A DNA stretch of 64,000 bases from Cyanidioschyzon merolae (lineage: Eukaryota), in assembly GCA_000091205.1 (NCBI GenBank), contig AP006491.2, one strand, 5' to 3'. Positions 1,615-60,626 of this stretch are shown here, one piece after another (the first letter of the stretch is position 1; every line of letters starts with the position of its first letter). The notes under the pieces were generated by a model. The model did not search any database. It saw only the letters and a program-made list of their open reading frames with translations, and had not been told where the DNA came from. The position numbers and the translations under genes were made by a program.

Positions 1615-2652
1615 TCAGGGGCCTGAAAGTATCCAGATTCGAGCATGCGTGGCGGCTCGTGACTCTCGTAGACGACCAAGATGCCGAAAAACATTCATCA
1701 GCGCTCTGCCCGTAGTATCCTGCTTCAGTGATGCAAAGGACTTGATATCTGTCTCGGAGAAAAAGTAGTGCCCGCGAGTCTCGTCCGTTTCCATGTCCTC
1801 ATAGCGGCAGCGCTGATCAAGCTGCGCAGAAGTGAGCTCATGCTTTGGACGACGCAAAAGCGCATACTTATAACGCAAGATGCTCTCAATATCGCTGATC
1901 GCTCTATGCAGACGCTCTATGGTGACGCGTCCGCGTATGTGCCCCGGAACTTGCTGGAGCGTCTCCTCAGTCACTGGCTCGACGCGTGGAGCGGCGTCAA
2001 CCGCCGGCGCTGCTCGGGGAAACGAGTCTCGCTTCCGTGGAACAGGCGAGACACTGTCGTTTACCCTGCCAGTGGGTGCTCCTTCTGATCCAGGTGGCTG
2101 CTGCGCGCTCGGTGGTGAAGCGTCCTCCGTACCAGCGCAAGTGCGCCCGGCGCGTCGCCGCTGCTGGAGCGCCACCTGCAAACGACGCCACTGCTGCCGC
2201 TGCTCTCGTACTCGGCGACAAAGCTGCTTCATTTGTCCGGCATATCGCAAGTCCTCCTCTAGCGCCTCTTTCAGCCAGTAGAAGTGCGTCTCCGCTGCTT
2301 GGAGCTGCGCCTCGGTGGCGTACAAGTGCTCATCCAACGCTGGCACTGCCTCAGCTGAGCGCATCAGCGCCAACCACTTGAGAGTACGCACCCGCCGGAC
2401 AAGAGTCGCAGCATCGGCACCCAGTTGACTCCCAATACCGAGTAGTCGTTGCTCATCGGGATGACCCTCAACCGGGACCTCTGAGCGTTCCCCGCGAGTC
2501 GACAGCATATGCAAAAGGTCCGACACGCGCCAGGGATTTTGAATGTCGCGGCCGCAATGGACGGTGCTTTGTTCCAATGCCGCACACGTCGATGAAACAG
2601 TCGATGCTCCACGAGCACGCAGGGTATATGAATACCGACGTGCAGACGCCAA
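1615..2652 (-). CDS. SKA1: Spindle and kinetochore-associated protein 1 (SKA1)-like, with C-terminal microtubule-binding winged-helix region
   Basis: The 345-aa ORF has the C-terminal block IRGRVTIERLHRAISDIESILRYKYALLRRPKHELT...ETRGHYFFSETDIKSFASLKQDTTGRALMNVFRHLGRLRE. This aligns by eye to the human SKA1 C-terminus (MKSRLTYNQINDVIKEINKAVISKYKILHQPKK...DTKGRYFIVEADIKEFTTLKADKK...LNILRHCRRLSEVRGG). The N-terminal start is uncertain because the first ATG lies 6 bp from a transposon remnant. Confidence 0.6.
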   Translation of the reverse strand: MASARRYSYTLRARGASTVSSTCAALEQSTVHCGRDIQNPWRVSDLLHMLSTRGERSEVPVEGHPDEQRLLGIGSQLGADAATLVRRVRTLKWLALMRSAEAVPALDEHLYATEAQLQAAETHFYWLKEALEEDLRYAGQMKQLCRRVREQRQQWRRLQVALQQRRRAGRTCAGTEDASPPSAQQPPGSEGAPTGRVNDSVSPVPRKRDSFPRAAPAVDAAPRVEPVTEETLQQVPGHIRGRVTIERLHRAISDIESILRYKYALLRRPKHELTSAQLDQRCRYEDMETDETRGHYFFSETDIKSFASLKQDTTGRALMNVFRHLGRLRESRAATHARIWILSGP

Positions 2653-2657
2653 CCAGT

Positions 2658-2946
2658 CTATGTCGACCGGCCAGCTACTAGTAGCTCCAACTTCTCCTTA
2701 TACGCCTCGAGTATCAGAGGCTGCCCCATAAAGTTGGTTCGCGCCAGCTCCTCGGGTCTCTTCTCCAGCACTGCACATCCCCTGACATTGAAGGCGGCGT
2801 CGAAGTCCCGGTACACAAATACGATACGTTTCTTCCCGTTGTTTGCACTTACGAATGCAAGTAGGCCTCGATTTTGGGCGCTCCATTCCATTTGCTCCTA
2901 CGTCAGCGCTGCGAACTTTTCTACATGCGCAGGGCTCCGCTTGCAC
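2658..2946 (-). pseudogene. Fanzor/TnpB-like RuvC-III-containing C-terminal fragment (decayed copy a)
   Basis: The 77-aa ORF reads NNGKKRIVFVYRDFDAAFNVRGCAVLEKRPEELARTNFMGQPLILEAYKEKLELLVAGRST. It is colinear and clearly homologous with the C-terminus of the 298-aa ORF at 36367..37263 (NGKKRMEFVNRDFNAALNIRTCVVLQTRPPEWTRENFVGQPLKVELYEQKLEAVVGGRS). The D-x-N-A-A-x-N-[IV] motif is the TnpB/Cas12 RuvC-III signature. The DNA at 2870..3000 also aligns with 36760..36900. Confidence 0.6.
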
Positions 2947-3380
2947 TTCTCCGTCTCGACTTTCTGAGGTGTACGCCCCAGCTCATTCCTGATTTTCTTG
3001 AAACTGAATGTATTTGTTCAAGACTTTGGGTGAAGACCTCCCGAGAAAGAGAGAAGGGCTTGCGGAAGAGAGGCGAAATTTGCCCTGGTGTCTCATTGTG
3101 TGCTGAACGAATCAGCGGTTCGCCCAGTGGAGCGATCAGTACGTTTCACGATAGAGAACATTTCCTCGCAGAGGATGCGCCACGATGAGCATGTAGGAAT
3201 GAAAAGCATCTCTACCTCAATAGAATCGGTAAAGGCTCGAACGCAAGTGGAATGGTCAAATGCCAAGTTGTCCAATAGAAGGAACTTCGCCGGACGTCAG
3301 TGACAGGTCTTCAACGATTCGACAAAGCGGGTGGTGCTGTTGTACGGGCCTTCACTACGACCGAAACTAAGGCCGCAAAA

Positions 3381-4160
3381 TCACTCCGCTGCCTCTAGAA
3401 CAGATGATGTCGTTGGTCTCTTGGAGTTTGATTCTACATACATCTTGGTCCCTGCTCCGGGATTACTCATATCCGCTTTGACCGTTTCACCCGAGGCAAG
3501 TCTCATCGACCGAGAAAACAAACCGACGTCGCTGTGCTGTATACGGATCGCCGAGTTCCGGGAACTTTCTTGTAGTTGCGATTTCGATGGAAGATGGCCA
3601 TATGTGAACAAGGACTCTTTTTCCGACTGTATCCCAGTGGTTTCAGGACCACTCGAACCAGCTGCTAAGAAACAGAAACGCCCATGGTGGCTCCTATCAT
3701 CGTTTTGCGCTTTCCCTAAAGTGATCAACGGGTCGTTCTGTACCACTGACTGCAAGCGATCTCGAAGAATATCTGACTTTGGCGCGGGGCGCGTGATCTC
3801 CGTCCTCTCAGTGTCCCTTAGCCATCTGAGAACTGTGGTATGACTGACCTGAATGAGGAATGCAGTCCCTGTTGCACTGGTCAGTAACGCGTACGTATCC
3901 CACAGGCAATTCTTCCACGATCTATGCGGCACATTGCATCGAGATTTCGGTTTCTTTGTACTCACCGCAGCGGGGGTGAAATAATACTGAGTTGAAGGAC
4001 TTTTACGCTTCAAATACCATCTTGGATGGAAATATTCAAGCGTCATGCTGGAGGCTTCCACATCCGCATGGAGTTCGGGCCACGTGCCGTGAGACGCTCC
4101 CGTCTTTGCGGGGCCAGCACGCAAACGATTGCATAGAGCCTGTAGATGAAACCTCGGCAA
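3381..4160 (-). CDS. Hypothetical ORF inside the transposon remnant, possibly the decayed N-terminal part of the Fanzor or another element-encoded protein
   Basis: 259-aa ORF in a lower-GC island directly upstream of, and on the same strand as, the RuvC-III fragment. No confident domain assignment. Confidence 0.2.
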   Translation of the reverse strand: MPRFHLQALCNRLRAGPAKTGASHGTWPELHADVEASSMTLEYFHPRWYLKRKSPSTQYYFTPAAVSTKKPKSRCNVPHRSWKNCLWDTYALLTSATGTAFLIQVSHTTVLRWLRDTERTEITRPAPKSDILRDRLQSVVQNDPLITLGKAQNDDRSHHGRFCFLAAGSSGPETTGIQSEKESLFTYGHLPSKSQLQESSRNSAIRIQHSDVGLFSRSMRLASGETVKADMSNPGAGTKMYVESNSKRPTTSSVLEAAE

Positions 4161-5394
4161 ACGCGTGCAAAACGCTAATAAACCATGACAGTCGCCGCGG
4201 GTGGAAGTGCCTCAGCGTTCCAGCGACCCGCGAGGTGCCGAGTTCCTCGGAAGCGCTCGCCACGGCACCGGACACGTAGCGCCAGACGACGCGCGGCGTC
4301 AGCACCTCTAGGCGTTGCGTTTAGGGCCCTCGGCTCCATGCTGCACGATGCCCGTGCCGCACAGTGCGCTTCCTCGCCTGCTGCTGACGCCAGCGCTGGT
4401 GAAACAATGCCAGACATACCCACTCCGTGCCGTTACGTATTCGGTGCCCGCGGTGTTCACTGGTCAATGCATTCGATCTTCACAACAAAGCGGCTGCTGC
4501 GAATGCCAAAGGAACAGATCCAGCTTTGCACGCGACCCGTTCCGCTTGGTTGCCAATACGAGGAAACCGCTCAGGTCCGTGGCGCTGCACACTGCTAACG
4601 ATGCCTGGATGGTATGGAATGCGGGACGGCAATGCAGCCGCTTCGATAGAGTTTACATGCCCGATGCAGCTCGTACCTCAATTGATTCAGGCGCGGGGAA
4701 CCCAGGCTAGATGAATCCCTAATTGACTTCGGAATGCATCTCATTGTTCTCCAGGGGAGTTCCACGGTGTTCGTAGGAGAACGTATCGCCTCGCTGGCCG
4801 CACAGGAGCAATCCGCGGCGACTCCCCGTGCAGCTGATCCATGCTCGCCATCCAGCCTGCAATGATGGCATAAAGTGTTAGGTACCACGTTGTTTTTGGT
4901 GCGGTCTCGGTGCGAGATCGCGTTTACTCCTCTGAAACCCGGCTGTCTAGCCAACTGCGAACATTCGGCATGATCGTTCACAGGTGCTACCAAAATTCCG
5001 GCATGCGCGACGCATGTACTGTATAGGCAGCTGGCTTTCGGAAATCATCTTGCGTTTTGGAGCAGTAAGCATCGCACTCGGCCTCGGATAGAGACTGGGA
5101 ACGCTGGCATCGATACCGAATGAACAAATGGCAGCGTGCAGTCGAACACGACTGCTTCATACAAAACAGTCGATCGAACCGCACACAGAGCACACACAGA
5201 CGAGTCAAGAACGTATCGACTAGACCAGGGCGCCGGTTCCCATACACGCTGCAAGCACAGCATCGCACCCGCGGCAGACAGCTATTACAGGGTATCTCGC
5301 GCCAATGACCAGGCCACAGACCGGTGTGCAGCGCGGAATTCAGCAAGCCTGGCGGCCTTCTCATGCGTGTGGACAAAGTCGGCGGGGTTTGGAT

Positions 5395-6177: not shown

Positions 6178-6286
6178 CGGACTAAAAGCGTCGATGGCAG
6201 AAGGAGTCGCTCAGACCTGCGGCGCAGTGCTGCTTTGCGCGCCTTTCTGGTGGCGCTGATTTCAAATCGCCACGATGTGCAACGCT

Positions 6287-6287
<1 letters not shown>

Positions 6288-6322
<35 letters not shown>
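6288..6322. repeat. (ACGC)n tetranucleotide microsatellite, about 8 units
   Basis: cgcacgcacgcacgcacgcacgcacgc is visible directly. Confidence 0.9.
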
Positions 6323-6344
6323 GTTTCGCGCTTCTCAACGCCCT

Positions 6345-8036: not shown

Positions 8037-8142
8037 ACCACGGTTACTCCACTCGTGCCGCTTGACACGTAACGACGACACCTTCTGGACACGACCCCAG
8101 AGACGCAGCTTCCGTCAATGCTCCAACCCGGCAACCTCGACG

Positions 8143-18385: not shown

Positions 18386-18899
18386 CCAGTGCTGGGGAAG
18401 CATTGAAGCATGCGTCTTGAATGGCGAAGGATCGTTGCATCTAATCCGGAATCCTCCGCGTCCAGATCGACCTCTTACCGTTTGGTCGCTGCGGCAGACC
18501 GCACGAGCTGCGAAGCGCTTCACGATGGAGCACGGGAGCCAGCTGCGTCGATGCCGCCCGGACTGCACTGCCTATCGGCAAGGTGTGTTTGGTTTTTGTG
18601 CACAGCACCAGAGACTGCACGTCAGCCCCGCAGTGCGATGGGCGCACCATGCCTATTCTGTGGTGTAGCCCGCAGGGCATACGCAGAAACGTCAATACAG
18701 GACGAGAAAACACGTTCAGCTGGATGCAAATCCCCGAGCGGCAACAACCGACGCACCGCATCGCGCAAAAGCCTCGAAGCATCCACACCCGCGTACGTCT
18801 CCGATTGGAACACGCAGAACTGCTCATTCTTGTCCTAGCTGGATATTTTCGACGTTGTTTTTTCGAGTTTCGAGCATCGGCATCCAAAGCGCGCGAAAA

Positions 18900-19980
18900 A
18901 TGACGTAAAAATTCAAAAGCATTCTAGGATTCTCGGTCATCTTTTTGGAGTGGGTGTTCGGAATCTTTGCTGTTGGCACTCGTCACATTACCGGAATCAG
19001 GATGATTCAAAATGCCCTCGACCAAGCGTTCGTAACATATACGATATCATTATGCATTTCATACGTGCAAGCATCCACACTTCGTCACCGAAGCTTACGT
19101 GTAGCATGTTTGATACGCGGATGTTTCAAGTTTTCGATCGTGCTGTCTCCATGAAACTCATGGGCAGACCAATGCACGCTTGAGGATTTACGAGGCAGAA
19201 AGTCGACGTCGTCCCCAGACGACTTGTTCATAAGCTCACGCCGACGCGCACGGAACTTTTCATGTGAAATCACTGATTCCGTTCGAAATACAAATCCGAG
19301 TCGGTTTGTTGCCATCATTGAAGCGACCTACAACGGCGGCGCCGACGGCAGCAGCAGCAGCAGCAGCAGCGTACCTCTCACCAGATATGCTCGCCGAGGC
19401 ACCCGTCTCTTCTGTTTCCATGGGAAAAAAGAAGCTTTGACACGGACTTGAATCATTGCAGCAATCGCCGGAAGCAGAGCGTACGTCGCCGCTTTGCACG
19501 AAGGGGGCGTAGACGACTCGAAATTTCTCGACTTGGTCTCGAGCTTGGATTATCCTTTCGGTTTTCGTTTCATCATCAGCAACATCGTGTTGCACAAACC
19601 CTCTGTCGAATGAGAGAGCGTGCACTTGCACGCCAAGCGTAGACGCCGAGGACATCGCCCAGAAGCGGCAACAAAGGCGTGTATCGAGAGGCAAGTCTTC
19701 TGGACCAGTCGAGTGCATGTACGAAGCGATGAAGCGAACGTTCACGCACTCCAGTGCAGTCATCGGAGAAGGAGGACGCTGAGGTGCAGCGGATACACCC
19801 GGACACCTAACCACATCCACGTGTCAACGCCGCGACGGGCGCCCCGACGCCGTACGCAAAGCAGTTGAAAATGACAAGCGCAGCGTGGATCGCAACTTCC
19901 GCCTCTGCAAGAATTGCGTGGAAAGCAGCCAGAAGCAACAATCCCGTTACCTGAACGCTGCCATATCATCCTCCGGGAAC
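18900..19980 (+). mobile_element. Degenerate Fanzor-bearing transposon remnant (copy b); boundaries approximate
   Basis: The DNA is colinear with 48800..49960 (copy d). Examples: attaccggaatcaggatgattcaaaatgccctcgaccaagc...catttcatacgtgcaagcatcc aligns with attaccttgccggaatcaaaatgcttcgcgacgccctcagacaagc...caattcatacgtacaagaatcc, and catcatcagcaacatcgtgttgcacaaaccctctgtcgaatgagagagcgtgcacttgcacgcc aligns with cgtcatgaacaacatcgcgttccacaaatcctctaccgaatgggcgagcgttcacttgcgtgtgc. Its 3' part (about 19930..19975, ctgaacgctgccatatcatcctccgggaacg) is a decayed version of the RuvC-III coding segment. A lower-GC island. Starts about 500 bp after the HGD stop. Confidence 0.5.
19348..19370. repeat. (GCA)n microsatellite inside transposon remnant b
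   Basis: ggcagcagcagcagcagcagcagc is visible directly. Confidence 0.85.
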
Positions 19981-20437
19981 GTATTACGGAGCTGGGGCGA
20001 CAGGAGACCCTGACACAATTAACGCCGCAAATATGAGTGACAGAGAGGGATAGAGGAAAAGGCTGGTACTAGTGGCGATCGCAAGTAATCCGACGTTTAT
20101 TGTAGACGCCTGACTCAGGATAGTGGACTCGTTTCATTTCAGTCCGATACGGGTGTAAGATCTTTACGGTCCTTGCGTGTGAACGAAGGAGTCAGTGCTT
20201 CATTTTGGAGAAAGAATAGGCACGACCTGGCAACTTGTGCAGAGCAATGCCGCCGAGCATACCGTTCAGCTGTTGTGGGTCTTCCGGTGGCGGGCGGTAC
20301 GTGAAAGCGCCCTCAAGCAACGCGCTTTCCCTGACGAGACCGTGTACTACTCACTCTGTTCACAAATGGGAGCTTTCGAGCACTGTACTCGAGTTTGAAG
20401 GCTTGATACGCCAGAACCAGTCTCGAGCCTGCTCTGG

Positions 20438-22948
20438 ATGCGTTCCAACGGAACAATCACCACACCCGAGCGTCCGTACAGGCCATGGTGGAAAGCCGAG
20501 CAAGTCCAGCAAGCACTCGAGCGCGGTACAGTGGTGGCAGGAGAACTTCGTGTGAACGCCAAACAACCTGGGGAAGCTTTCGTGCGCAGCGTGCACCACA
20601 AAAGAGATATCTTTATCCAGCGGGAGCAGCTTCGCAACCGAGCGCTCGACGGAGACCTCGTTGCCGTGTTGGTAAAGACGCGTCCACGACGCAACAGCAA
20701 CTCAGCAGCAGTACCAGTAGCAGTTCAGGACTCGTGTTCCGAGCCGTCGACCTCTGACGGGTCGTCGCTCGGAGCCAGCGCCGAACTCGAACGTGACAAG
20801 GCGCTAGGAACACTGCCTCTGGGTCAACCGAGGACGCACCTGGAGCCGGCCGAAGGCCCAGAACCCGAACACCTATGCGGGCGAGTCGTTGCTGTTTTGG
20901 AGCGCCACCGACCCCGATACATATTTGGGCGAGTGGAACGACACGATTCACTTCTGTGTTTGTCACCAGATGATCGACGTCTACCAAGGTTTCAAATCGA
21001 GCTGGTTGGCTTCTGCGCTCGCGCTAGGGAACGCCTGTATCGAAGCGTTGGTCATCTAGCTGTCGCAACGTTCACGGGCCGTTGGCATACACACGACACC
21101 TTCCCGCGGTGTGCGCTCTTGCGACTCTGGGACGAGAGCGATGACCTCGCTGCTGGCATGTCGCTTATTCGCTACAAGTTTTCTGTACCACCGGCTACGG
21201 CCTCGTGCTGGATACCGCTTTCGAAAGCAGTTGCCTGGGATGCATCCGCTGCGGGTACCGCTTGGGATGCCTGCTCAAAAAGTCATAACATTCGTGACTG
21301 GCGCGACGCTGTTCGGGCGTTCACCATCGACCCGGAGACGAGTCGCGACCTCGACGATGCGCTGTCGGTGCGCTGGGATCCCGATGCAAATGGGTACCGC
21401 GTTGGCATCCATATCGCAGACGTGTCGGCCTATGTACAAACTGGGACCCTATTGGATGAGGAGGCAGCACGCCGAGGCACTAGTTTCTACTTTATGGACC
21501 ATGCAGTACCGATGTTGCCGCCAGCGCTTAGCGAAGACCTCTGCTCGCTGCTCCCCGGACGCGATCGACGAACCGTATCGGTAGAGATTCTGCTGACAAC
21601 AGATGGGACAGTGCAGGGTGAGCCCTGGATCGGTCGCGGGCTTATCCGGAGTTGCGCCAAGCTCTCGTATCAGCAGGTCCAGCGGATCCTGCGGGATCGG
21701 GATCCGTCTCAAGTTTCCGATCCGTTGATAGCGGACGTGCATCTCCTGTACCGTTTGGCAATGCAGAGGCGGCAACAGCGACGCGCTCGGGGCGCGCTCC
21801 TACAGTTTCAACGCCAGCTGTCGCTGGAGCGAGTGCGCGCTATTCGTTCATTCGCGAACCTGAAGAAGACGGGCGAACCAGACGGTGCACATTGGCTCGT
21901 GGAGGAATTCATGCTCCTGGCGAATGAACAGATCGCGAGGTTCCTCCAGCGGCACTGTCCCCGGGAGGCACTCCTGCGACGTCATCCGCCGTTCGATAAA
22001 ACGCTCGTGGAGCGTATTACCCAGTGGGCGACAAAGCGAGGCCTCGCATTCACAGCAAGCGATACGCAAGCGCTCCAAACGAGTCTGGATGCGCTAGCGG
22101 ACACAGCACCGATCGCAATGATCGTTCTCCGCAACAAACTTACCAAGGCGATGGCGACTGCTGAATACATCTGTGCTGGTGCCTTTGACGATGCAGCCGC
22201 TTACCGTCACACTGCACTCGACCTGGATGTGTATACGCATTTTACCAGCCCGATACGGCGCTATGCGGACATCATTGTGCACCGACAGGTGCTTTCGGTG
22301 TTGGACGCGCCAAGTGAGGCACGGTCTGGTTCCCAGAAGCCGGTTGCTCAGCAGGTCGAAGCCGTCTCCGCGATCGCTGCACACTGCAACCAGCGCAAGA
22401 AGGATGCCGACGCTGCGGAGTCGGCGGCTGCTTGGCTCCATCTCGCACAAGAGCTCCAGGTCGAGCCGCTCGAGTGCGATGCGATCATTGGGGGTTTCCC
22501 GAACAGTTGCCGTTGCTTGGATGTATATGTACCAGTTCTGGACCTGGAGGTCGTACTGGACTTTACAAGGGACCTCGGCGCTTCGGTTTGTCTGCAGACC
22601 AGGGATCCAGTGACAGGTCTGGAGGAGCTCGAACTCGAATGGCCAGTGCATATACTGAGACCGTACGGCCTGGATGAGGCGCGCACGTCGTTCATTGTGG
22701 GGCTCGGCAAGTCGAGCGGGACCCATCCCGCCGCCTCACTGGTGTCAGAGGCGTGGACGATCCGAGTGCGTCTCCGAGAACTCGATACCTGTCGAGTACT
22801 CGTTTCGGGGGAGACTCGACCCTATGTCCACGCTCGCGTGCAGCTGATTCTAGACAGATGCAGTCCAGCGGACGCGCAGCGATACGTTCTGCGAGTTGCA
22901 AGCGTGCCGTGCCTATTGACGGAAAGCGACCACGACTTGCTCGACTAG
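20438..22948 (+). CDS. DIS3L2: RNase II/RNB-family 3'-5' exoribonuclease, DIS3L2-like (no PIN domain apparent)
   Basis: 836 aa. The N-terminal cold-shock region is GELRVNAKQPGEAFVRSVHHKRDIFIQREQLRNRALDGDLVAVL. The RNB catalytic motifs are FTIDPETSRDLDDALSV and HFTSPIRRYADIIVHRQ. A C-terminal S1-like region follows. Confidence 0.85.
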   Translation: MRSNGTITTPERPYRPWWKAEQVQQALERGTVVAGELRVNAKQPGEAFVRSVHHKRDIFIQREQLRNRALDGDLVAVLVKTRPRRNSNSAAVPVAVQDSCSEPSTSDGSSLGASAELERDKALGTLPLGQPRTHLEPAEGPEPEHLCGRVVAVLERHRPRYIFGRVERHDSLLCLSPDDRRLPRFQIELVGFCARARERLYRSVGHLAVATFTGRWHTHDTFPRCALLRLWDESDDLAAGMSLIRYKFSVPPATASCWIPLSKAVAWDASAAGTAWDACSKSHNIRDWRDAVRAFTIDPETSRDLDDALSVRWDPDANGYRVGIHIADVSAYVQTGTLLDEEAARRGTSFYFMDHAVPMLPPALSEDLCSLLPGRDRRTVSVEILLTTDGTVQGEPWIGRGLIRSCAKLSYQQVQRILRDRDPSQVSDPLIADVHLLYRLAMQRRQQRRARGALLQFQRQLSLERVRAIRSFANLKKTGEPDGAHWLVEEFMLLANEQIARFLQRHCPREALLRRHPPFDKTLVERITQWATKRGLAFTASDTQALQTSLDALADTAPIAMIVLRNKLTKAMATAEYICAGAFDDAAAYRHTALDLDVYTHFTSPIRRYADIIVHRQVLSVLDAPSEARSGSQKPVAQQVEAVSAIAAHCNQRKKDADAAESAAAWLHLAQELQVEPLECDAIIGGFPNSCRCLDVYVPVLDLEVVLDFTRDLGASVCLQTRDPVTGLEELELEWPVHILRPYGLDEARTSFIVGLGKSSGTHPAASLVSEAWTIRVRLRELDTCRVLVSGETRPYVHARVQLILDRCSPADAQRYVLRVASVPCLLTESDHDLLD

Positions 22949-25166: not shown

Positions 25167-26511
25167 AAAGTGGTACACCGCAGGGCCTGTATGCACATGT
25201 AATCAAAAACATCCGGCTACAGCGTTGTTCGGTCGTTCACAGCATGATTCGGGTCTCGTGAGAAACATCTGGTGAACGACCTTTGCGGGATAATGGGGTT
25301 TCAGATAAGGTCTGTACCAAGATACGGTACAACGAAGCGTCTTGACCTGATGCAAGCGGCTTTATCATGGTCCAAATGGACAAATGGCGTGCCCGAAGTG
25401 GAATGCGCTCAAACCATGCTTCCTCCGGTGCATCATCCTGCATGAAGGACGGCATGCGTTGGAGCGTAGCGCTCGAGCACCGCACGAGACGCGCGACTGG
25501 TGCGCAGTATCTTCCAGGACTTACGCGATCCGCAACGACTGGCGGGTAGAGCTGGTGCACGGCAGAGCGGCAGCGTTCCAATTGTACTGAAGCGCGAGAC
25601 CACCCGACGGCGTACGAAGCGTCTCTACTCCGTTTATTGGCAGCGTGTGCACCCTCGCGGGAATGCTGCTTCGAACTGTGTTCCAGCAGATTTCGAAAAT
25701 GCACTGGCAACCAATCGTTCTGAGGCAACGACATCGAGTGCTGTAACAGTGGCCAAGCTATCGACACGCGCATGCAACCACGAAAGCGCACAAACGCTCA
25801 GGCGCTTCTGTGCAGAGCGGTGTACCTGCTCACGGGTCTGGGCGCTTTACTCAACCTGTCTTTAACACTTGGCGACAACTATAAACGACAAAATTACAAA
25901 CAAATGAAGGTCCAGCGGCCTCTCGTGGTGCGCGTGCACGCCTTGCACGGTGCAGCTGTGCTCGCGAGAGCGCCTTCCGGCAAACACCAGCAGCAACAGC
26001 GCAGTGCGCTGCTCTAACCTCCGTAGCCCGCTGAAGACGCGCGATCCCAGCTATCCATCCAAGACGGCCTTCGGACTCGTATCCCGTTGACGGAATGCAT
26101 GGAGGTATCGCAGGTATGCTCGTCGTAGCTGCCGCACCCAAGCGACGAACTCGAGGGCGTAGGCCGAGGCACGCGTACTCCTAGTCAGGGCTGGAAGACC
26201 CAAAAAAACAGAAATGTACAGATTACATGAGACCCCCGCCAGCGCCAGCGCCCGCGCCAGCGCCGCTCGTGACGCTGTCCCACGCTGACGCAACGTTTCC
26301 CTGCCCGAGGTACCATCGATGCGTCTCAGCGGGCATCTCGCCGCTGCGCTATGCTTATTTGGAAACGGAGAAGCAACCGCCAAACCACTCCAGAAACTCA
26401 CCCTGCCTGCTGGGGATTCTTTCAGAGAACAACCCCAGCGCGTACCCGTCGGGCGTCACGCTTGGTTCTTCAAGGCGTTCGCCAGGTGCGTGCCTTCCTG
26501 CATCACCGCTG

Positions 26512-26878
26512 CTGCTGATCTCTACTACAGATCTCTACTCATTGCTGATCTCTACTACAGATCTCTACTCATTGCTGATTGCTGATCTCTACTCATTGCT
26601 GATCTCTACTACAGATCTCTACTCGTTGCTGATTGCTGATCTCTACTCGTTGGTGATTGCTGATCTCTACTCGTTGCTGATTGCTGATCTCTACTCGTTG
26701 GTGATTGCTGATCTCTACTCATTGCTGATTGCTGATCTCTACTCATTGCTGATTGCTGATCTCTACTCATTGCTGATTGCTGATCTCTACTCGTTGCTGA
26801 TTGCTGATCTCTACTCGTTGCTGATTGCTGATCTCTACTCATTGCTGATTGCTGATCTCTACTCATTGCTGATTGCTG
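26512..26878. repeat. 24-bp tandem array, about 15 units (ctgattgctgatctctactc[a/g]ttg), preceded by a few 30-bp variant units
   Basis: Near-identical contiguous units are visible directly. The period is a multiple of 3, so the ORF stays open on both strands ((LIADLYSL)n on plus, (SRDQQSAM)n on minus). A 12-bp direct repeat, ctgcatcaccgc, flanks it at 26498..26509 and 26882..26893. Confidence 0.9.
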
Positions 26879-27441
26879 CCGCTGCATCACCGCCGGGGAT
26901 CGGCGCCGATTGGCCGACGCGATCGAGAGGCCGTCGAGTCGGCGCCGTCGACCGCTCCTCCCATACCTCCTGCAACGCCTCGTGGTACGCCTCCATTGAG
27001 GTTCAACACACAGGACGCCATTACGCTTGACAGCTTGGGTAACGAAACAGTGTTCACTGCTCTAGCGGTTCGGTGTGGTGTCCACTGGTAGTAGGTAGAG
27101 CCAAGTGGGGAAACGCACACGTCTACGTTTCTGGAGGCCTTGCTCAAACGTGCGTTTTCTCGGAACGCAGAGGCGCTCTGGGGTACGACCAGCGCAAGCC
27201 TTTCCTGAGGTTGCCCGCGGTGCCGGGAGCGCGCTCGACACACGCGTGCGTCTGAACGCACGACAACGGGTAAGTTTCGCGGAACCTCGGTGTGTGGTGA
27301 CGGGAGCTGCTGCGGCACTGGAGCGCCCGGTCACGAGGCTTCGAGGACCTGCGTCTGCGTCAGGAACCTAACTGGTGTTGGTGTTCCGCGCGGAGGGCGC
27401 CTGACTTTTGCGTCAGTCCGTCAGTCTGTTAGTCTGTACTC

Positions 27442-31389: not shown

Positions 31390-32046
31390 CTACGAACGCA
31401 TGATGGCAAGCGCGCGTTTCGCTTCCTCCACATGGGAGAGAAAGTCCATCTGACTGTTGTGCACCTTCACAACCTTACCCTCCTTGTCAATGACGTAGGT
31501 TACTCTCCCTGGTAAAACACCTAACGTATTCGGAACGCCGTAGAGCTTGCGCACCTTGCCGCCAACATCTGCAAGCAGACGAAAGCGATATCCCTGTGCC
31601 TCGGAGAAGCGCTTCTGCTCCTCTACAGTGTTCGAGCTGATGCCCAGCACCACAGCGTCTACGGACTCGAAAGCGGCGAGATCATCTCGAAAGGCGCAAA
31701 GCTCTTTCGTGCAACCGGGACTCGACGCTGCCGGATAGAAGGCCAGTACCACGGGTTTACCACGCAGCTTGGACAGGGTCACTGCTTCTCCATTCTGATC
31801 AAGCAGCGTAAAGTCCGGCGCCATAGAACCCTCCGTGACTCCAGCACTCCGCAGCGTGAAGAGCGAACGTCGAGCAGCGGCACCGTGGGAGCGTTTAACA
31901 GTCAGCAGGGCTGCTTGTCTTCCGTACCGAACTCGAGCGGGTACAGCCTGCTCGAATCCCTGGCTCGGGTAAGCTTGTGCTTGCCTTGCACCAGCCCTGA
32001 TGCCAGCGCGCTGAAGAGATTGCGTAAGCGTTAAGGAAACAAACAT
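31390..32046 (-). CDS. BCP/PrxQ-type peroxiredoxin with about 60-aa N-terminal extension (putative organellar presequence)
   Basis: DFTLLDQNGEAVTLSKLRGKPVVLAFYPAASSPGCTKELCAFRD...GRVTYVIDKEGKV is the atypical 2-Cys PrxQ/BCP active-site motif (PGCT..xC). The N-terminal Ser/Arg/Ala-rich segment lacks acidic residues, which is typical of transit peptides. Confidence 0.85.
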   Translation of the reverse strand: MFVSLTLTQSLQRAGIRAGARQAQAYPSQGFEQAVPARVRYGRQAALLTVKRSHGAAARRSLFTLRSAGVTEGSMAPDFTLLDQNGEAVTLSKLRGKPVVLAFYPAASSPGCTKELCAFRDDLAAFESVDAVVLGISSNTVEEQKRFSEAQGYRFRLLADVGGKVRKLYGVPNTLGVLPGRVTYVIDKEGKVVKVHNSQMDFLSHVEEAKRALAIMRS

Positions 32047-32630: not shown

Positions 32631-33110
32631 ATGAGTTCGGAACAAGCTCCAACCAAGGGGCAGCTTGCTCCTGTCATCAGGGCTACAGACCATAACGGAA
32701 CGTTGGTGGACACCGAGTCTGTGCGAGGTCAACGGCCCGTCGTGGTGTTCTTCTTTCCGCGAGCGTTCACCGTGGGCTGTACCCGAGAAGCGTGCGCGTT
32801 CCGTGACTCTTATTCGGCTTTCGAAACTCTGAACGCAATGGTGGTAGGCGTATCAGCTGATTCCCCACAGGTTCTGCGGGAGTTCGCGCAGCAACATAAA
32901 CTTCCGTTCCACCTTGTTTCGGATACCGACGGGAGCCTGCGCAAACTCTTCCAAGTGCCCAGATCCCTGTTCGGTCTTCTTTCTGGGCGGGTTACCTATG
33001 TCATCGGACGGAGCGGCCGCATTCTGGATATATTTAATAGTCAGCTCAGTTGGACCGAACACGTAAACGTGGCGAAGAAGGCTATCGCTGCAGAGGAGGC
33101 CGCTACATGA
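32631..33110 (+). CDS. BCP/PrxQ-type peroxiredoxin, second paralog without N-terminal extension
   Basis: VVVFFFPRAFTVGCTREACAFRDSYSAFETLNAMVVGVSADSPQVLREFAQQHKLPFHLVSDTDGSLRKLFQVP...GRVTYVIGRSGRILDIFNSQ. It shares the GCT(K/R)ExC, GRVTYVI and NSQ blocks with the upstream paralog. Confidence 0.85.
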   Translation: MSSEQAPTKGQLAPVIRATDHNGTLVDTESVRGQRPVVVFFFPRAFTVGCTREACAFRDSYSAFETLNAMVVGVSADSPQVLREFAQQHKLPFHLVSDTDGSLRKLFQVPRSLFGLLSGRVTYVIGRSGRILDIFNSQLSWTEHVNVAKKAIAAEEAAT

Positions 33111-34049: not shown

Positions 34050-36419
34050 TCAACGATTCTCGGCAGGTCCTTGACGCCGCATGTGGCGCTCGTAGTAGAA
34101 TTGCGCAAAGGTAGGCAGCACTCGAGAGGAGACCACGGATGAAAGCGAACCTCCAGGTTCCGGATGCGTACACGACGCACCCGATGCCTGGCGGAAGACC
34201 AGCGTTAGCTCATTTAGGAGCGTTTCGTAGCGGTAGCGAACACGAATAGATGGAACATTGGACTTGTGGATATCGTTCCCCTGGTCATTGGTGAGAAACC
34301 AGCGCGGTCCGAGCCAGTGCGCCTTCACACAGGGCTCGAAACCGCTCTGTAGCGCAGAGTTTCGCGCCAGTTCACAGAGATCCGAACTGCTCAGTTTCCA
34401 TATCTGAGCGGCTACCGAGTACTCTTCCATGAGCGGCTCGCGAGAGAAATGGAACATAAGTGGATCATCGGTGCTGAGGCTCACATTCAGCCCGCGTGCA
34501 ATAAACACTGGTACCGGTGACTTGGTGTAATCGACGAATAGCAGGTTATTGCCCAGCGGAGAGACAGCGAGACCCACTTGGCACAGGTAGTAGAGGTACT
34601 GCAGCACGGGTGCTTTTTTCAAGTTAATCCCGTGATTAATACCGTGCGCGAGGAGAAACGTCACTGCCAGGTGATCGATTTCGCCGGCTTCACCAGCATG
34701 TGGGCGGAATCGAAAGGTATGCAGGCCTCGATGCTCGCGAAACCTGTTCAAAACCCATAAATTAGCGTAGATGTAGTAGGTGAAGTATGCATAGGGCATC
34801 GGTGCTGAGGTACGCCACGCTAGCGGCGGTGGCAAGGTCAACAAGTCGATGCGTGGCTGCGGTACACTCTCGTCGTCAACGGTGTCGAAGCCTACAATCT
34901 GTTGCAGAACTGTGTGCAGCTCCGGATGCGTTGATGGATCTTGCGTGACCTCAAATAGCGGGAAGAAAATATTGTTCAACATTTCCTGAAAGGATTCCAG
35001 CAACCCTGCTTCGTGGTAGGCGCCGAACAAACGCGGAATCTGGATCAACCATCGGGCGTGATCCGAGTAGATTCGATGCTTGGTGAACCAGCGAGCAAGA
35101 CGATCCCACTCGCATCGTTTTTTGCCGTATATCGAGATTCGGGGCTCGATATGGGAGTACTTGCTCTCTACAAGATCATCGAGGACCTCGCGGGTGATTT
35201 CCGCCAGAAATCGGCCTTCGATAAAGTTGTCCGTTTTCAGAAACACTTCCCGAAGACGAGATTCTCCCAGCGGGGAATACTTGTTATTGAAGCGGTCAAA
35301 GCGCTGCACGGTACGCTTATCCGCGTGCACGTCGAGCGTGTCCACCGACAGCTCATACGCCGTGATGCCGAGGGAGTCGAACACCCCGGCCAGCGTCAGA
35401 ACGCGGCCATCGCGCTCAATCACTGGGGTGTTCGGCTCGGTCTTGAGTTTCTTCTTAATAAATCGGAGCAGGTGCTTCTGGTTCATACAGGAGCTGTGAT
35501 GAATATGCGTGTCAACCTTGCGGACATTATAAAAGTCTCGATGCGGCACTGTCATCTGCTCTAGCCGCTCTGCTTCATCGTTGAGTAGCAGATGCATTTG
35601 AAAGCGCAGAGAGAGTAGTTGCAGACGCCTGTAGCAGAACGAGCGGGAGTCGGGATCGTTCATGATCCCGATCAGCGTGTTCAGATCGTGCACGAAAAGC
35701 GCATAGGAGCCAGGAACAACGAACTTGCACGGTTCGCGGCTTGTCTCGGTTGCCGGTCTTGTGACCTCCATGATGCCATCACGAACTTCGAACGCGTAAT
35801 CGCCCTTCGCCAGGGCTGGCCCTCGAAAAGGATCATACGGTGGCGGGACGTGGATACTCAGGTCACAGTCGCGGTACGGAGGTGCCGGGTTCGCATACTC
35901 TGGGACTTCAGGTAGGTAGAGGTATTTCTCGCGGAGGGCGATAGCGTTTCGGAGCAGTGCACATACCCTGCGCTCGTCGGCGTTTAACTCGACCTCGTTC
36001 GTGATGAGTACTCGCTGAAAACCTCGCTCTGTAACCGCAGATCGGAGTGAGCGGAAGGCTTGCCCAAGTTCTCGCCGGAGTTCAAGCGTCTGTAACGCAG
36101 TCAGGGTCGCCTCGTCTACCGAGGCCGTGTTGTGCACGAGTTGGGTTCCGTCGCTACGGTCACCTGAAGTGGAGGCTTCTTGCGCTCGCAGAGGATCGGT
36201 AACAGGAACCAGCAGCGCGTCCCGTGCCCTCTCGTCGGAGCGCTCACCAGCTGCCACCGACGATTGAACTAGACGACGCCAGTGAGGAGACAGGGCGCGC
36301 TGTGCAAGAACCGGTTCGGCATCCTCCTGTTCAAGGTCATGAATCCAAACGAGCTTGCCACTATCTCTACCAAATGGTTCCATGAGCGTGCACGTGCTCC
36401 AGTTCCCCGACACCGTCAC
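34050..36419 (-). CDS. AMPD: AMP deaminase
   Basis: 789 aa. It has the metal-binding motif VDTHIHHSSCMNQKHLLRFIK, SLSTDDPLMFHFSREPLMEEYSVAAQIWKLSSSDLCELARNS, and a long central block colinear with AMPD/Amd1. Start is either Met1 (36419) or Met13 (36383); Met1 overlaps the tail of the Fanzor ORF. Confidence 0.9.
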   Translation of the reverse strand: MTVSGNWSTCTLMEPFGRDSGKLVWIHDLEQEDAEPVLAQRALSPHWRRLVQSSVAAGERSDERARDALLVPVTDPLRAQEASTSGDRSDGTQLVHNTASVDEATLTALQTLELRRELGQAFRSLRSAVTERGFQRVLITNEVELNADERRVCALLRNAIALREKYLYLPEVPEYANPAPPYRDCDLSIHVPPPYDPFRGPALAKGDYAFEVRDGIMEVTRPATETSREPCKFVVPGSYALFVHDLNTLIGIMNDPDSRSFCYRRLQLLSLRFQMHLLLNDEAERLEQMTVPHRDFYNVRKVDTHIHHSSCMNQKHLLRFIKKKLKTEPNTPVIERDGRVLTLAGVFDSLGITAYELSVDTLDVHADKRTVQRFDRFNNKYSPLGESRLREVFLKTDNFIEGRFLAEITREVLDDLVESKYSHIEPRISIYGKKRCEWDRLARWFTKHRIYSDHARWLIQIPRLFGAYHEAGLLESFQEMLNNIFFPLFEVTQDPSTHPELHTVLQQIVGFDTVDDESVPQPRIDLLTLPPPLAWRTSAPMPYAYFTYYIYANLWVLNRFREHRGLHTFRFRPHAGEAGEIDHLAVTFLLAHGINHGINLKKAPVLQYLYYLCQVGLAVSPLGNNLLFVDYTKSPVPVFIARGLNVSLSTDDPLMFHFSREPLMEEYSVAAQIWKLSSSDLCELARNSALQSGFEPCVKAHWLGPRWFLTNDQGNDIHKSNVPSIRVRYRYETLLNELTLVFRQASGASCTHPEPGGSLSSVVSSRVLPTFAQFYYERHMRRQGPAENR

Positions 36420-37263
36420 ACAACAAACGCCGGTCTAAAGTCGAATGTCGCCTGCACTGTACAGTACCGGCGAGAAATTCGCCCCGGACAAGACGTCTCC
36501 AAATTATTCGCGGACGCCTCCCCGTGGTTCTCGACCGGCCACCTACTACTGCTTCCAACTTTTGCTCATATAATTCCACTTTGAGAGGTTGCCCCACAAA
36601 ATTCTCTCTTGTCCACTCTGGAGGTCTAGTCTGCAGCACTACACATGTCCTTATATTGAGAGCTGCATTAAAGTCTCGGTTCACAAACTCCATGCGTTTC
36701 TTACCGTTGGTTGTTATGCTAACCAATGCAAGGAGTCCTCGAACTTGTGCCCTCCTTTCCATCTGCTCTTCCGTCAGCTGTCCGTACTTTTTTATATCCT
36801 CAGGGCTCCTCTGGCACTTTTCCATCTCGACCCTTTGAAGTGTGCACCCCAGTTCATGATGTGTATACGATGTCCGGAACTCATCTATGGGTATCGTAAC
36901 GAAACGTTGTGCGCACTCCTTGTACGTTCGTGTCGTTGGAGCTGGCGTAGTCCTTTTTTGGGTCTTCCAGCGCCCTGCTCTGTATGCTTCTACCAGCCTC
37001 TGACTTTCATCCTCCTTCAAAGCGTTCAACTGATTGAAAACGTTCGCGAACGCGCGCCGCTTCCCACAATACAGATTCATACGCAGACTAGCCCACCGGG
37101 GCTTTGTATACTCCTCCCACAGTGCATCCCAATGCGCAACGCGAGCTTCCATGAATTTCCGGAAAGCTTCAAAGTCCGCTCCGCGGACCGTCACCTCGCT
37201 CAAAGCTTCCAGGTGCTCCTTCACCCCTGCATTCCATCTCTCAACTTTCTTCCTTGCATTCAC
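36367..37263 (-). CDS. Fanzor/TnpB-like nuclease, C-terminal half (RuvC-II region, zinc finger, RuvC-III), the most intact copy (copy c)
   Basis: 298-aa ORF. The segment ...AQRFVTIPIDEFRTSYTHHELGCTLQRVEMEKCQ... follows the TnpB pattern G..V..V.E.YTS..C..CG (RuvC-II Glu followed by the zinc finger). NRDFNAALNIRTC is the RuvC-III D-x-N-A-A-x-N-I signature. By comparison with copy a, which stops after ...VAGRST, the native stop is probably near 36520, and the last 50 or so codons are fortuitous read-through. Confidence 0.7.
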   Translation of the reverse strand: MNARKKVERWNAGVKEHLEALSEVTVRGADFEAFRKFMEARVAHWDALWEEYTKPRWASLRMNLYCGKRRAFANVFNQLNALKEDESQRLVEAYRAGRWKTQKRTTPAPTTRTYKECAQRFVTIPIDEFRTSYTHHELGCTLQRVEMEKCQRSPEDIKKYGQLTEEQMERRAQVRGLLALVSITTNGKKRMEFVNRDFNAALNIRTCVVLQTRPPEWTRENFVGQPLKVELYEQKLEAVVGGRSRTTGRRPRIIWRRLVRGEFLAGTVQCRRHSTLDRRLLCDGVGELEHVHAHGTIW

Positions 37264-60450: not shown

Positions 60451-60626
60451 GCATCACAAGATCCAGAATCCCGGATAGGCATCAACGCGGAGCGACGCAC
60501 TCTGCAAAATCAAGAGGAGGCTCGCTTCTGGGTACACATCAGCTGCGTAGACGCTCGGAAGCTGCTAGGATTGGATAGTATCCCTGCCACGGTTCCGCTT
60601 ATGCCCTCATCTAGGTCAAGAATAGA

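What the first reader, a model, noticed from the sequence alone, without database searches (positions are those of the whole stretch)
2650..36620. Orientation pattern: three element 3' ends sit immediately upstream of host genes on the same strand
Copy a ends 6 bp before the SKA1 ATG. Copy c ends about 100 bp before the AMPD ATG. Copy b ends about 450 bp before the DIS3L2-like ATG. In each case the element is in the same transcriptional orientation as the host gene. Three of four oriented copies share this geometry in a gene-dense region. This may reflect insertion into promoter-proximal open chromatin, selection for elements that drive or at least do not terminate downstream genes, or target homing guided by the omega-RNA.
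Basis: inference. Interest (0 to 1): 0.5.

Follow-up and report, generated by a model that had tools for sequence, protein, structure and literature searches.

The report
Fanzor transposon tails abut gene starts

Summary
The window is Cyanidioschyzon merolae 10D. The repeated element is the known Fanzor1 family CMe-1A, also called the "WSV repeat".

Only two stretches of the window derive from it:
- Copy c is a frameshifted, nearly full-length copy. Its true 3' end is at 36426, 42 nt before the annotated AMPD ATG, not about 100 bp.
- Copy a is a 3' remnant of about 380 nt. Its recognisable homology ends 126-134 nt before the annotated SKA1 ATG at 2508. The "6 bp" claim rests on a TTG that is not the start codon.

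"Copy b" is a different, non-coding dispersed repeat. It shows no positional or orientation bias (6 same, 8 opposite, all at least 500 nt away).

A same-strand host ATG lies within 120 nt of the element's 3' end in 22 of 46 loci. Uniform intergenic insertion predicts 5% (p about 1e-16). Only 3 loci have an opposite-strand gene end that close.

The 5' end is never closer than about 180 nt to a gene. Its neighbouring gene is divergent in 18 of 21 cases.

Most likely the elements insert next to gene starts in promoter regions and survive only when the outward-reading 3' (ωRNA) end faces the gene. Expression was not tested.

The parts
36426..38985 (-). Copy c: core of a CMe-1A Fanzor1 element, about 2.56 kb. 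The 3' boundary is exact and the 5' boundary is approximate.
   Evidence: Collinear blastn homology to about 50 paralogous copies starts near 38880-38990 and stops at 36420-36458, most often at 36426. The boundary is fixed by L063 and L035, which share an identical element end but have unrelated flanks.
36367..38515 (-). Fanzor1 coding region of copy c, broken into four overlapping ORFs (37973-38515, 37663-38052, 37241-37696, 36367-37263), so a pseudogene. The RuvC motifs GADPG, DEFRTS and RDFNAALNI are still readable.
   Evidence: ORF list. tblastn of family proteins. 204 homologues. A family profile hits solved Fanzor1 structures 9cf0, 8gkh and 9cer.
36426..36483 (-). Non-coding 3' tail of copy c: the conserved box CCACTACTGTACAC followed by a degenerate terminal hairpin. 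This is where a Fanzor ωRNA scaffold would end. The family's stop codon TAG is mutated to CGG here, so the ORF reads on into the flank.
   Evidence: Alignment of 53 3' ends. The terminal hairpin folds in most paralogues. Sequence read.
36384..36425 (-). 42-nt gap between the element's 3' end and the AMPD start codon.
   Evidence: The AMPD start is fixed by an exact match to BAM80004, 777 aa.
34050..36383 (-). AMP deaminase CDS (host gene).
   Evidence: Pfam AMP_deaminase, E=4e-248. Exact match to C. merolae 10D BAM80004.
2634..3014 (-). Copy a: 3' remnant of the Fanzor1 ORF (last ~127 codons; stop TAG at 2660-2658).
   Evidence: blastn 2642-2986 against 36510-36857, 72% identity. tblastn 2634-3014. 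Sequence.
1615..2508 (-). SKA1 CDS (host gene). The start is ATG 2508-2506, not TTG 2652.
   Evidence: Pfam SKA1, E=3e-36. Exact match to BAM79991, 297 aa.
39051..39727 (+). Copy of TE-N2_CMe, a ~680-nt non-coding repeat that forms the 5' part of full-length CMe-1A. Here it lies head-to-head with copy c, inverted relative to the usual arrangement.
   Evidence: The identity with TE-N2_CMe is inferred from the description in Bao & Jurka 2013.
47566..48284 (+). It lies 264 nt from the divergent NDUFA13 gene.
60340..60461 (-). Fragment of about 120 nt from the TE-N2 5' end.
18806..20003 (.).
   Evidence: 61% identity to 48733-49940, with similarity equal in all six frames. 14 independent copies show no adjacency or orientation bias.
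48733..49940 (.).
20438..22948 (+). Dis3-like RNB exoribonuclease CDS (host gene).
   Evidence: Pfam RNB, E=7.5e-89. Exact match to BAM79997, 836 aa.

Best explanation
What it is. The repeated element is CMe-1A, the already described Fanzor1 (eukaryotic TnpB-like, RNA-guided nuclease) transposon of Cyanidioschyzon merolae, also known as the 'WSV repeat'. Its copies mostly sit in promoter-containing intergenic regions, most often between head-to-head genes. They have a sharp polarity. The precisely defined 3' end, where a Fanzor ωRNA scaffold ends and reads out into the flank, is typically 1-120 nt (typically about 40 nt) upstream of a host start codon on the same strand. The 5' end stays at least about 180 nt from the gene on its side.

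Most likely mechanism (inferred, not shown). The elements insert close to gene 5' ends, in the TSS-proximal region. Only insertions whose 3' end faces the gene survive. Transcription must leave that end to make the guide part of the ωRNA. That transcription, by read-through or from an internal promoter, keeps the displaced gene expressed. An insertion with its 5' end against an ATG would cut the gene off from its promoter and be lost.

In the window this applies to copy c (AMPD) and, more loosely, to remnant a (SKA1). It does not apply to 'copy b'.
For: Identity of organism and family:
- The window's genes are exact C. merolae 10D proteins.
- A family profile hits solved Fanzor1 structures PpFz1 (E=8e-22), SpuFz1 (1e-14) and GtFz1 (1.5e-7).
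- The D, E and D catalytic columns are conserved.
- Copy number, ~3.2 kb full length, absence of TSDs and the TE-N2 5' module match Bao & Jurka 2013 and Nozaki 2007.

Geometry:
- Across 49 unique loci, 46 had a callable neighbour, with 33 downstream neighbours on the same strand and 13 on the opposite strand.
- A same-strand ATG lies within 25 nt in 9 loci, within 60 nt in 16 and within 120 nt in 22. The null expectations are 1.1%, 2.7% and 5.1% (p from 3e-9 to 1e-16).
- Only 3 opposite-strand gene ends lie within 120 nt (22 vs 3, p=1.6e-4).
- The result is robust to stricter gene-calling and to leaving out the window's own locus.
- My called starts give the same protein length as the 10D annotation in the 5 looked-up host proteins that have a 10D counterpart in their cluster. 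These are PCCB at +15, a PPT-like translocator at +18, a DnaJ protein at +22, a 629-aa protein at +40 and a TACC-domain protein at +55. The AMPD and SKA1 starts match the annotation as well.

Polarity:
- The 5' neighbour is divergent in 18 of 21 loci (p=0.0015).
- The smallest gap from the 5' end to a gene start is about 180 nt.
- The 3' gap is shorter than the 5' gap in 15 of 20 loci.

Precedent for outward reading: in S. punctatus, Fz1 ωRNA transcripts extend 14-15 nt past the conserved 3' region into variable flank (Saito 2023). The C. merolae elements are reported as transcribed (Nozaki 2007).
Against: - No expression, TSS or small-RNA data were available, so promoter donation or read-through is pure inference.
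- The 3' tail is not more conserved than the decaying ORF, so there is no sign of locus-by-locus exaptation.
- Column-wise covariation of the tail structure is not significant.
- In tandem intergenic regions, 6 of 8 copies point away from the promoter-side gene. There is therefore no absolute orientation rule. Much of the 'same strand' signal follows automatically from a preference for head-to-head gene pairs.
- The loci are the best 80 of 233 hits on metagenome contigs, not the finished reference genome.
- The 5' gaps may be inflated by unrecognised 5' element sequence.
- Nearly all copies, including copy c, are pseudogenes. Any role of the Fanzor protein itself would have to be historical or supplied in trans.
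Confidence: 0.5

Rival explanations
1. Pure chance: in a gene-dense genome any intergenic repeat lies near some gene, and three of four is not significant.
For: - Within the window only two valid cases exist.
- 'Copy b' belongs to a family with no bias: 6 same and 8 opposite neighbours, all at least 500 nt away.
- The null model gives about 47% same-strand neighbours.
Against: For the Fanzor family, 22 of 46 independent loci have a same-strand ATG within 120 nt, against 5.1% expected (p about 1e-16). The ratio of gene starts to gene ends abutting the 3' end is 22 to 3.
Confidence: 0.03
2. Insertion preference alone. The transposition machinery targets nucleosome-free or melted DNA at transcription start sites, in a strand-specific way, as expected for an HUH or rolling-circle mechanism that needs single-stranded DNA. 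The gap to the ATG would then simply be the host 5'UTR length, and the element contributes nothing to host expression.
For: - The gaps decay from 1 nt upward, like a distribution of short 5'UTRs.
- There are no TSDs or TIRs, the 3' end is precise and carries a sub-terminal hairpin, and the 5' ends are heterogeneous or truncated. Bao & Jurka describe the same features for Helitron2-type Fanzor1 elements with one-ended transposition.
- The first 5-9 flank nucleotides show a weak yGyyG bias.
- Both flanking genes usually point away from the element.
Against: - An insertion 1-60 nt before an ATG removes the gene from its upstream promoter by 2.5-3.4 kb. Without some transcription coming out of the element, such alleles should be lost, especially for genes such as SKA1, PCCB and AMPD.
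- No transposase is known for the family.
- In tandem regions the orientation relative to the promoter-side gene is not fixed.
Confidence: 0.25
3. Guide-centred selection. Because the ωRNA guide is the first ~15-20 nt of 3' flank, copies next to start codons carry guides against the 5'UTR or start codon of a host gene. Such copies would be favoured. One route is as drives: cutting the empty allele in a diploid stage at a site where error-prone repair is lethal, so that only homology-directed copying survives. The other route is as domesticated RNA-guided regulators of the adjacent gene, like TldR.
For: - In 9 of 46 loci the ATG lies within 25 nt of the 3' end, so a guide of Fz1 length would cover it.
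- The catalytic motifs are conserved across the family, and codon position 3 is less conserved than positions 1 and 2. The protein was therefore under selection for a long time.
- A sexual, diploid stage of Cyanidiophyceae has been described (abstract listed).
Against: - Almost all copies, including copy c, are frameshifted or truncated. The longest ORF among about 50 copies is 722 aa.
- No TAM could be defined because the 5' boundaries are fuzzy.
- No RNA evidence exists.
- The gaps vary from 1 to 250 nt, so most guides would lie in a 5'UTR or upstream of it rather than on the ATG.
Confidence: 0.1
4. Secondary compaction. The elements inserted anywhere in promoter regions, and the spacer between the 3' end and the gene was later deleted during genome streamlining.
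For: - The genome is highly reduced (Nozaki 2007).
- The copies are old, about 80% identical to each other, and copy c is shared at 99.3% identity between strain 10D and the metagenome populations.
Against: - Deletion should act on both sides, yet the 5' side keeps at least 180 nt.
- Deleting the spacer would also delete the promoter unless the element supplies transcription, which collapses this rival into the main explanation.
Confidence: 0.07

Closest known systems
CMe-1A / 'WSV486-like repeat' of Cyanidioschyzon merolae (Bao & Jurka 2013; Nozaki et al. 2007)
   Same: It is the same organism and, by every described feature, the same family. Full-length copies are about 3.2 kb, copies are about 80% identical, there are no TIRs or TSDs, and the 5' ~635-680 bp equals a separate repeat (TE-N2_CMe). 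The ORF is of Fanzor1 type and most copies are degenerate.
   Different: The published descriptions call the copies 'distributed randomly' and give no relation to genes. Reported here, and not found in the searchable literature, are the 3'-end-to-start-codon adjacency, the preference for head-to-head intergenic regions, and the exact 3' boundary with its sub-terminal hairpin. I could not compare with the Repbase consensus itself.
Experimentally characterised Fanzor1 systems (SpuFz1, PpFz1, GtFz1)
   Same: There is profile-level homology across the REC and RuvC regions. The D/E/D catalytic columns are conserved. [quoted passage not shown]
   Different: This clade lacks the CxxC...CxxC zinc finger; only HH...C...C remains. 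SpuFz1 elements have 33-bp TIRs and TA TSDs, which are absent here. No RNA, TAM or cleavage data exist for CMe-1.
Position-specific eukaryotic transposons of compact genomes (Dictyostelium TRE5-A ~48 bp upstream of tRNA genes in fixed orientation; yeast Ty3 at Pol III start sites; S. pombe Tf1 in Pol II promoters) - from general knowledge
   Same: In each case a mobile element in a gene-dense genome sits at a characteristic short distance upstream of genes with a preferred polarity.
   Different: Those are retroelements whose integrases are tethered to transcription factors. Here the element is a DNA element carrying an RNA-guided nuclease. The neighbours are protein-coding genes, the gap is measured to the ATG, and it varies from 1 to 250 nt.
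Bacterial insertion sequences with outward-facing promoters, and the non-random intergenic placement of ISs (general knowledge; cf. PMC2942039 listed)
   Same: The idea is the same: an element upstream of a gene in the same orientation is tolerated or favoured because transcription leaves its end.
   Different: No promoter has been demonstrated here, and a eukaryotic context needs capping and scanning.
TldR, TnpB-derived RNA-guided transcription factors (Wiegand et al., listed)
   Same: Both involve a TnpB-family protein whose guide matches promoter-proximal DNA of a host gene.
   Different: TldRs are nuclease-dead, single-copy and domesticated. Here there are hundreds of decaying transposon copies with catalytic motifs retained. 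The resemblance is only positional.

Membership tests
Fanzor1 (eukaryotic TnpB-like RNA-guided nuclease) | Sequence homology to experimentally validated Fanzor1 proteins | tested here: met
   A profile of 82 family members (first row P0018, 75% identical to copy c) hits PpFz1 9cf0 (E=7.8e-22), SpuFz1 8gkh (1.2e-14) and GtFz1 9cer (1.5e-7). A single sequence gives no PDB hit. Pfam gives no hit above threshold.
Fanzor1 (eukaryotic TnpB-like RNA-guided nuclease) | Split RuvC catalytic triad D ... E ... (R)D | tested here: met
   D197 and E369 are invariant and D438 is at least 90% conserved in alignment A2. GADPG, DEFRTS and RDFNAALNI are readable in copy c, but its ORF is frameshifted, so it is a pseudogene.
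Fanzor1 (eukaryotic TnpB-like RNA-guided nuclease) | C4 zinc finger between the E and RD motifs (Bao & Jurka motif) | tested here: not met
   The CMe-1 proteins read TSYTHHELGCTLQRVEMEKCQ, with two His and two Cys and no CxxC pairs. The clade consensus also lacks it, whereas PpFz1 has CPKC in the aligned position. Bao & Jurka nevertheless list CMe-1 as Fanzor1.
Fanzor1 (eukaryotic TnpB-like RNA-guided nuclease) | ωRNA encoded at the 3' end, with its guide taken from the flank | tested here: inconclusive
   A conserved non-coding tail of about 60 nt with an invariant box CCACTACTGTACAC and a terminal hairpin is present in most copies. Covariation is not above the shuffled controls, there is no Rfam match, and no RNA data exist.
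CMe-1A / WSV repeat of C. merolae | Host species, size (~3-3.2 kb), ~80% identity among copies, 5' ~635 bp identical in kind to TE-N2_CMe, no TIR or TSD | tested here: met
   Species. Full-length copies of 3.2-3.45 kb. 73-84% identity among copies. A 5' module that also occurs as a solo repeat. No TSD. A direct comparison with the Repbase consensus was not possible.
Helitron2-type non-autonomous element (as for the Chlamydomonas Fanzor1 elements CRe-1, CRe-2 and CRe-3) | 3' sub-terminal hairpin, intact 3' ends with variable or truncated 5' ends | tested here: met
   The hairpin ends 1-2 nt before the boundary in about three quarters of copies, in at least three sequence variants. The 5' ends are heterogeneous and 3' fragments occur, including copy a and L007:9532-10035.
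Helitron2-type non-autonomous element (as for the Chlamydomonas Fanzor1 elements CRe-1, CRe-2 and CRe-3) | Insertion downstream of a T-rich tetranucleotide; termini shared with an autonomous RepHel element | tested here: not met
   The 5' flanks of ten TE-N2/CMe-1A starts are not T-rich. No RepHel gene was seen in the window or loci, but it was not searched for systematically.
IS200/IS605- or IS607-type TnpB element | Associated TnpA (Y1 or serine recombinase) and a fixed target motif at the left end | not tested
   No other long ORF lies inside the ~2.6-3.4 kb elements. No conserved 5' flank motif was seen. No genome-wide search for TnpA was run.

The most novel reading that the evidence does not exclude
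The adjacency is functional at the RNA level. Because the Fanzor ωRNA guide is copied from the first ~15-20 nt of 3' flank, hundreds of CMe-1 copies encode guides against the 5'UTR or start-codon region of the very gene they precede. Either this makes them self-retaining drives in the diploid stage, by cutting the empty allele where imprecise repair would kill an essential gene, or a trans-acting Fanzor protein uses these RNAs to regulate the neighbouring genes.
Probability: 0.1. Interest if true: 0.85.

Novelty: new variant of a known kind. Interest (0 to 1): 0.55.

Why it matters
The element family makes up about 5% of one of the most streamlined eukaryotic genomes and was described as randomly distributed. 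If nearly half of its copies have their ωRNA-encoding end within about 100 nt of a host start codon, several things follow:
- Dozens to a hundred C. merolae genes, including housekeeping genes such as AMP deaminase, propionyl-CoA carboxylase and SKA1, must be transcribed through or out of a Fanzor element.
- Fanzor-bearing transposons would have a target or retention rule that has not been described.
- C. merolae has efficient homologous recombination and existing RNA-seq data, so it becomes a direct test bed for what Fanzor elements do in their native host, which is an open question.
- Practically, it also warns people choosing promoters or 'neutral sites' in this organism that 'upstream region' cassettes may contain transposon tails.

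Tried and rejected
- Pfam on the element ORFs and on distant homologues gave no family above threshold. There was only a sub-threshold Cas12f1-like TNB hit for one homologue.
- phmmer of a 757-aa reconstructed protein against PDB sequences found nothing. A profile was needed.
- RNAalifold on 44 tails predicted only a 3-bp helix. A hand-drawn structure showed no covariation above shuffles. I therefore claim only a hairpin in individual copies.
- Rfam found nothing in the window.
- A search for TSDs between the 5' and 3' flanks of nine full-length copies found only 4-6-nt chance words.
- A search for a 5' flank (TAM-like) motif at TE-N2 starts found none that was convincing.
- An attempt to recognise the degenerate tail of copy a was not significant.
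- I tested whether the tail is more conserved than the ORF, which would be a signature of exaptation. It is not.
- An unfiltered self-tblastx was too noisy to use.
- Treating 'copy b' as part of the family was rejected.
- Empty-site alleles could not be looked for.
Full report
**What the window is.** The sequence has about 57% G+C and is packed with long intron-less ORFs. Five predicted proteins match Cyanidioschyzon merolae 10D entries exactly, on an 810,151-bp chromosome:
- SKA1, BAM79991, 297 aa
- Dis3-like RNB exoribonuclease, BAM79997, 836 aa
- peroxiredoxin Q
- AMP deaminase, BAM80004, 777 aa
- NDUFA13

These matches fix the start codons. SKA1 starts at ATG 2508, AMPD at ATG 36383 and the Dis3-like gene at ATG 20438.

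**What the 'copies' are.** Self-comparison and tblastn with family proteins show that only two stretches derive from a Fanzor/TnpB-like gene.
- Copy c (minus strand) carries four overlapping ORF pieces between 36367 and 38515. The motifs GADPG, DEFRTS and RDFNAALNI are readable, but the reading frame is broken.
- Copy a (minus strand, 2634-3014) is only the last ~127 codons.
- 'Copy b' (18806-20003) resembles only 48733-49940, at 61% identity. The similarity is equal in all six frames, so it is non-coding.
- 'Copy d' is a composite of a ~700-nt repeat (47566-48284, also present at 39051-39727) and that b-type repeat.

**Family identity.** The 298-aa ORF of copy c has 204 homologues. A search of metagenome contigs returned 80 loci. 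L001 and L002 are 99.3-99.4% identical to the window over 9 kb, so the same species is present in those hot-spring samples. The other loci are paralogous copies at 73-84% identity. A profile of 82 relatives hits the solved Fanzor1 structures of Parasitella (E=8e-22), Spizellomyces (1e-14) and Guillardia (1.5e-7), with the catalytic D, E and D columns conserved.

The literature already describes this family.
- Bao & Jurka 2013 list one Fanzor1 family, CMe-1A, in C. merolae. It has about 150 copies, about 80% identity to consensus, a length of about 3 kb, and no TIRs or TSDs. Its 5' 635 bp equals another repeat, TE-N2_CMe.
- Nozaki et al. 2007 describe 253 'WSV486-like' repeats of 3.2 kb. They make up 5% of the genome, are 'distributed randomly' and are transcribed.

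My loci reproduce the size, the TE-N2 5' module and the absence of TSDs. The canonical C4 zinc finger is missing in this clade.

**Element boundaries.** Aligning 53 non-redundant 3' ends shows that homology continues past the point where copies a and c stop resembling each other (36510). It runs through a non-coding tail of about 60 nt: an invariant box CCACTACTGTACAC, then a hairpin such as GCGTCGTTCGA-CTT-TCGAACGGCGT, ending ...CGGCGTT. Two loci (L063, L035) share an identical element end followed by unrelated flanks, which fixes the boundary.

In the window this boundary is 36426. Copy c therefore ends 42 nt before the AMPD ATG, not about 100 bp.

In copy a, recognisable homology ends at 2642 or 2634. 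The annotated ATG is 126-134 nt further on. A degenerate tail could not be demonstrated there.

The 5' side of the family is heterogeneous:
- a common core begins about 190 nt upstream of window position 38800;
- some copies add TE-N2;
- others add a different extension of 600-800 nt;
- 3' fragments also exist.

I built a codon-usage gene caller on long ORFs. It reproduces the known genes of the window. For each de-duplicated element 3' end I found the nearest downstream gene.

| Measure | Observed | Null expectation |
|---|---|---|
| Unique loci / loci with a callable neighbour | 49 / 46 | |
| Same-strand vs opposite-strand neighbour | 33 vs 13 | about 47% same |
| Same-strand ATG within 25 nt | 9 of 46 | 1.1% |
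| Same-strand ATG within 60 nt | 16 of 46 | 2.7% |
| Same-strand ATG within 120 nt | 22 of 46 | 5.1% |
| Opposite-strand gene end within 120 nt | 3 of 46 | 4.2% |

The same-strand gaps start at 1, 7, 14, 15, 15, 17, 18, 21, 23, 38, 38, 39, 40, 42, 54, 57, 64, 84, 93, 103, 109 and 112 nt. The null comes from 9,792 random intergenic positions in the same sequences with the same gene caller. The p values run from 3e-9 to 1e-16. The ratio of 22 gene starts to 3 gene ends gives p=1.6e-4.

The result survives stricter gene-calling and removal of the window's own locus (14 vs 3 at the strictest setting). Seven host proteins were looked up and six were in the collection. The five whose clusters hold a C. 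merolae 10D entry have the length of that annotated protein, and they lie on five different chromosomes:
- propionyl-CoA carboxylase beta, ATG at +15
- a phosphate-translocator-like protein, +18
- a DnaJ protein, +22
- a 629-aa protein, +40
- a TACC-domain protein, +55

**Polarity and context.** The gene on the element's 5' side points away from it in 18 of 21 cases. The shortest gap from the 5' end to a gene start (a divergent neighbour) is about 180 nt. One stop codon of a tandem neighbour lies 65 nt from the 5' end of a truncated copy. The 3' gap is shorter than the 5' gap in 15 of 20 loci.

Of 20 loci with both neighbours called:
- 11 lie between head-to-head genes;
- 6 lie in tandem regions, antisense to both genes;
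- 2 lie in tandem regions, in sense;
- 1 lies between convergent genes.

Part of the 'same orientation' signal is therefore automatic, because between divergent genes either orientation qualifies. What is not automatic is that only the 3' end is ever found pressed against a start codon.

**Other repeats.** The b-type family shows 6 same-strand and 8 opposite-strand neighbours, none closer than 500 nt.

**Mechanism.** Shown:
- the identity of the family;
- the exact 3' boundary;
- the enrichment, the polarity and the promoter-region context;
- the absence of TSDs;
- hairpins in individual copies.

Not shown is any RNA or expression. Three sequence-based tests that could have supported a structured or exapted tail did not:
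- covariation in the tail is not significant;
- the tail is no better conserved than the ORF;
- the flanks share only a weak yGyyG bias.

Codon position 3 is less conserved than positions 1 and 2. Yet nearly all copies are broken. The family was therefore long-lived under protein selection, and most present copies are relics.

The explanation I favour combines two steps. First, insertion occurs close to gene 5' ends. Second, only copies whose outward-reading 3' end faces the gene survive. In S. punctatus, Fz1 ωRNA transcripts run 14-15 nt into the flank, and the C. merolae repeats are reported as transcribed.

The rivals are:
- strand-specific targeting of start sites, with no contribution of the element to host expression;
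- selection acting on the flank-derived guides, as a drive or a regulator;
- secondary loss of the spacer.

**Novelty.** The element is known. I found no report of its placement relative to genes, and the original description says 'randomly'. I therefore rate the finding as a new property of a known family, of moderate to good interest and directly testable in a tractable organism.

**Caveats.** The statistics come from metagenome contigs of C. merolae-like populations, not from the finished genome. The 5' boundaries are less certain than the 3' boundaries.

Noticed in passing
window 37399-37548 (inside the copy c ORF); loci e.g. L079:9417-9866, L064:1394-1694: A 75-nt (25-aa) acidic tandem repeat, of the type EDNDxVVxAxKHEDxKEAxPAxQEV, lies just upstream of the RuvC-I motif of the Fanzor1 protein. 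Its copy number varies from 2 to about 7 between copies.
   Followed up: partly
window 44537-45466: A tandem array with a 105-nt period and at least 7-8 units, the central units 98-100% identical. Long ORFs on both strands overlap it. It lies in a 3.2-kb stretch without a confident gene.
   Followed up: no
window 26566-26926: A 24-nt tandem repeat of about 15 units inside ORF 26227-27030, encoding (LIADLYSL)n. The codon score suggests it is coding.
   Followed up: no
window 3026-4000: Another dispersed non-coding repeat family of about 950 nt, 69-71% identical to copies in L042 (twice), L026/L044, L037/L062 and L007/L015. It starts right at the 5' breakpoint of Fanzor remnant a.
   Followed up: partly
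L024:2556-4537, L030, L031, L068, L037, L062: Head-to-head dimers of two Fanzor 3' halves share the same internal breakpoints (window equivalents about 37455 and 37576). Both outward-facing ends are 3' tails. This is either a sub-family that spread as a unit or a recurrent rearrangement.
   Followed up: no
L023 (flank after position ~990), L048/L049, L037 (copy ending near 1340): The downstream host reading frame is open and scores as coding right from the element junction, but has no ATG for 200-600 nt. This could mean insertion inside a coding region, or a start codon inside the element.
   Followed up: no
window 36484-36486 (minus strand): In copy c the family's stop codon TAG is CGG. The Fanzor ORF therefore reads through the tail and the 42-nt gap, overlapping the AMPD start in another frame. 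JGI gene calls for other loci likewise extend host proteins into the element, for example PCCB called as 680-875 aa instead of 604.
   Followed up: partly
window 31390-32046 (-) and 32631-33110 (+): Two paralogous peroxiredoxin Q/BCP genes sit head-to-head about 585 nt apart.
   Followed up: no
window 59577-59836: A 131-nt tandem duplication (two units, 97% identical) in an intergenic region. It lies about 500 nt from the TE-N2 fragment at 60340-60461.
   Followed up: no
TE-N2 copies in window and loci: For all 12 TE-N2 copies with a callable neighbour, the gene on the TE-N2 5' side is divergent, 185-2007 nt away (mostly 185-700 nt). The 5' module of the element, and its solo copies, therefore also live next to gene 5' ends.
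   Followed up: partly
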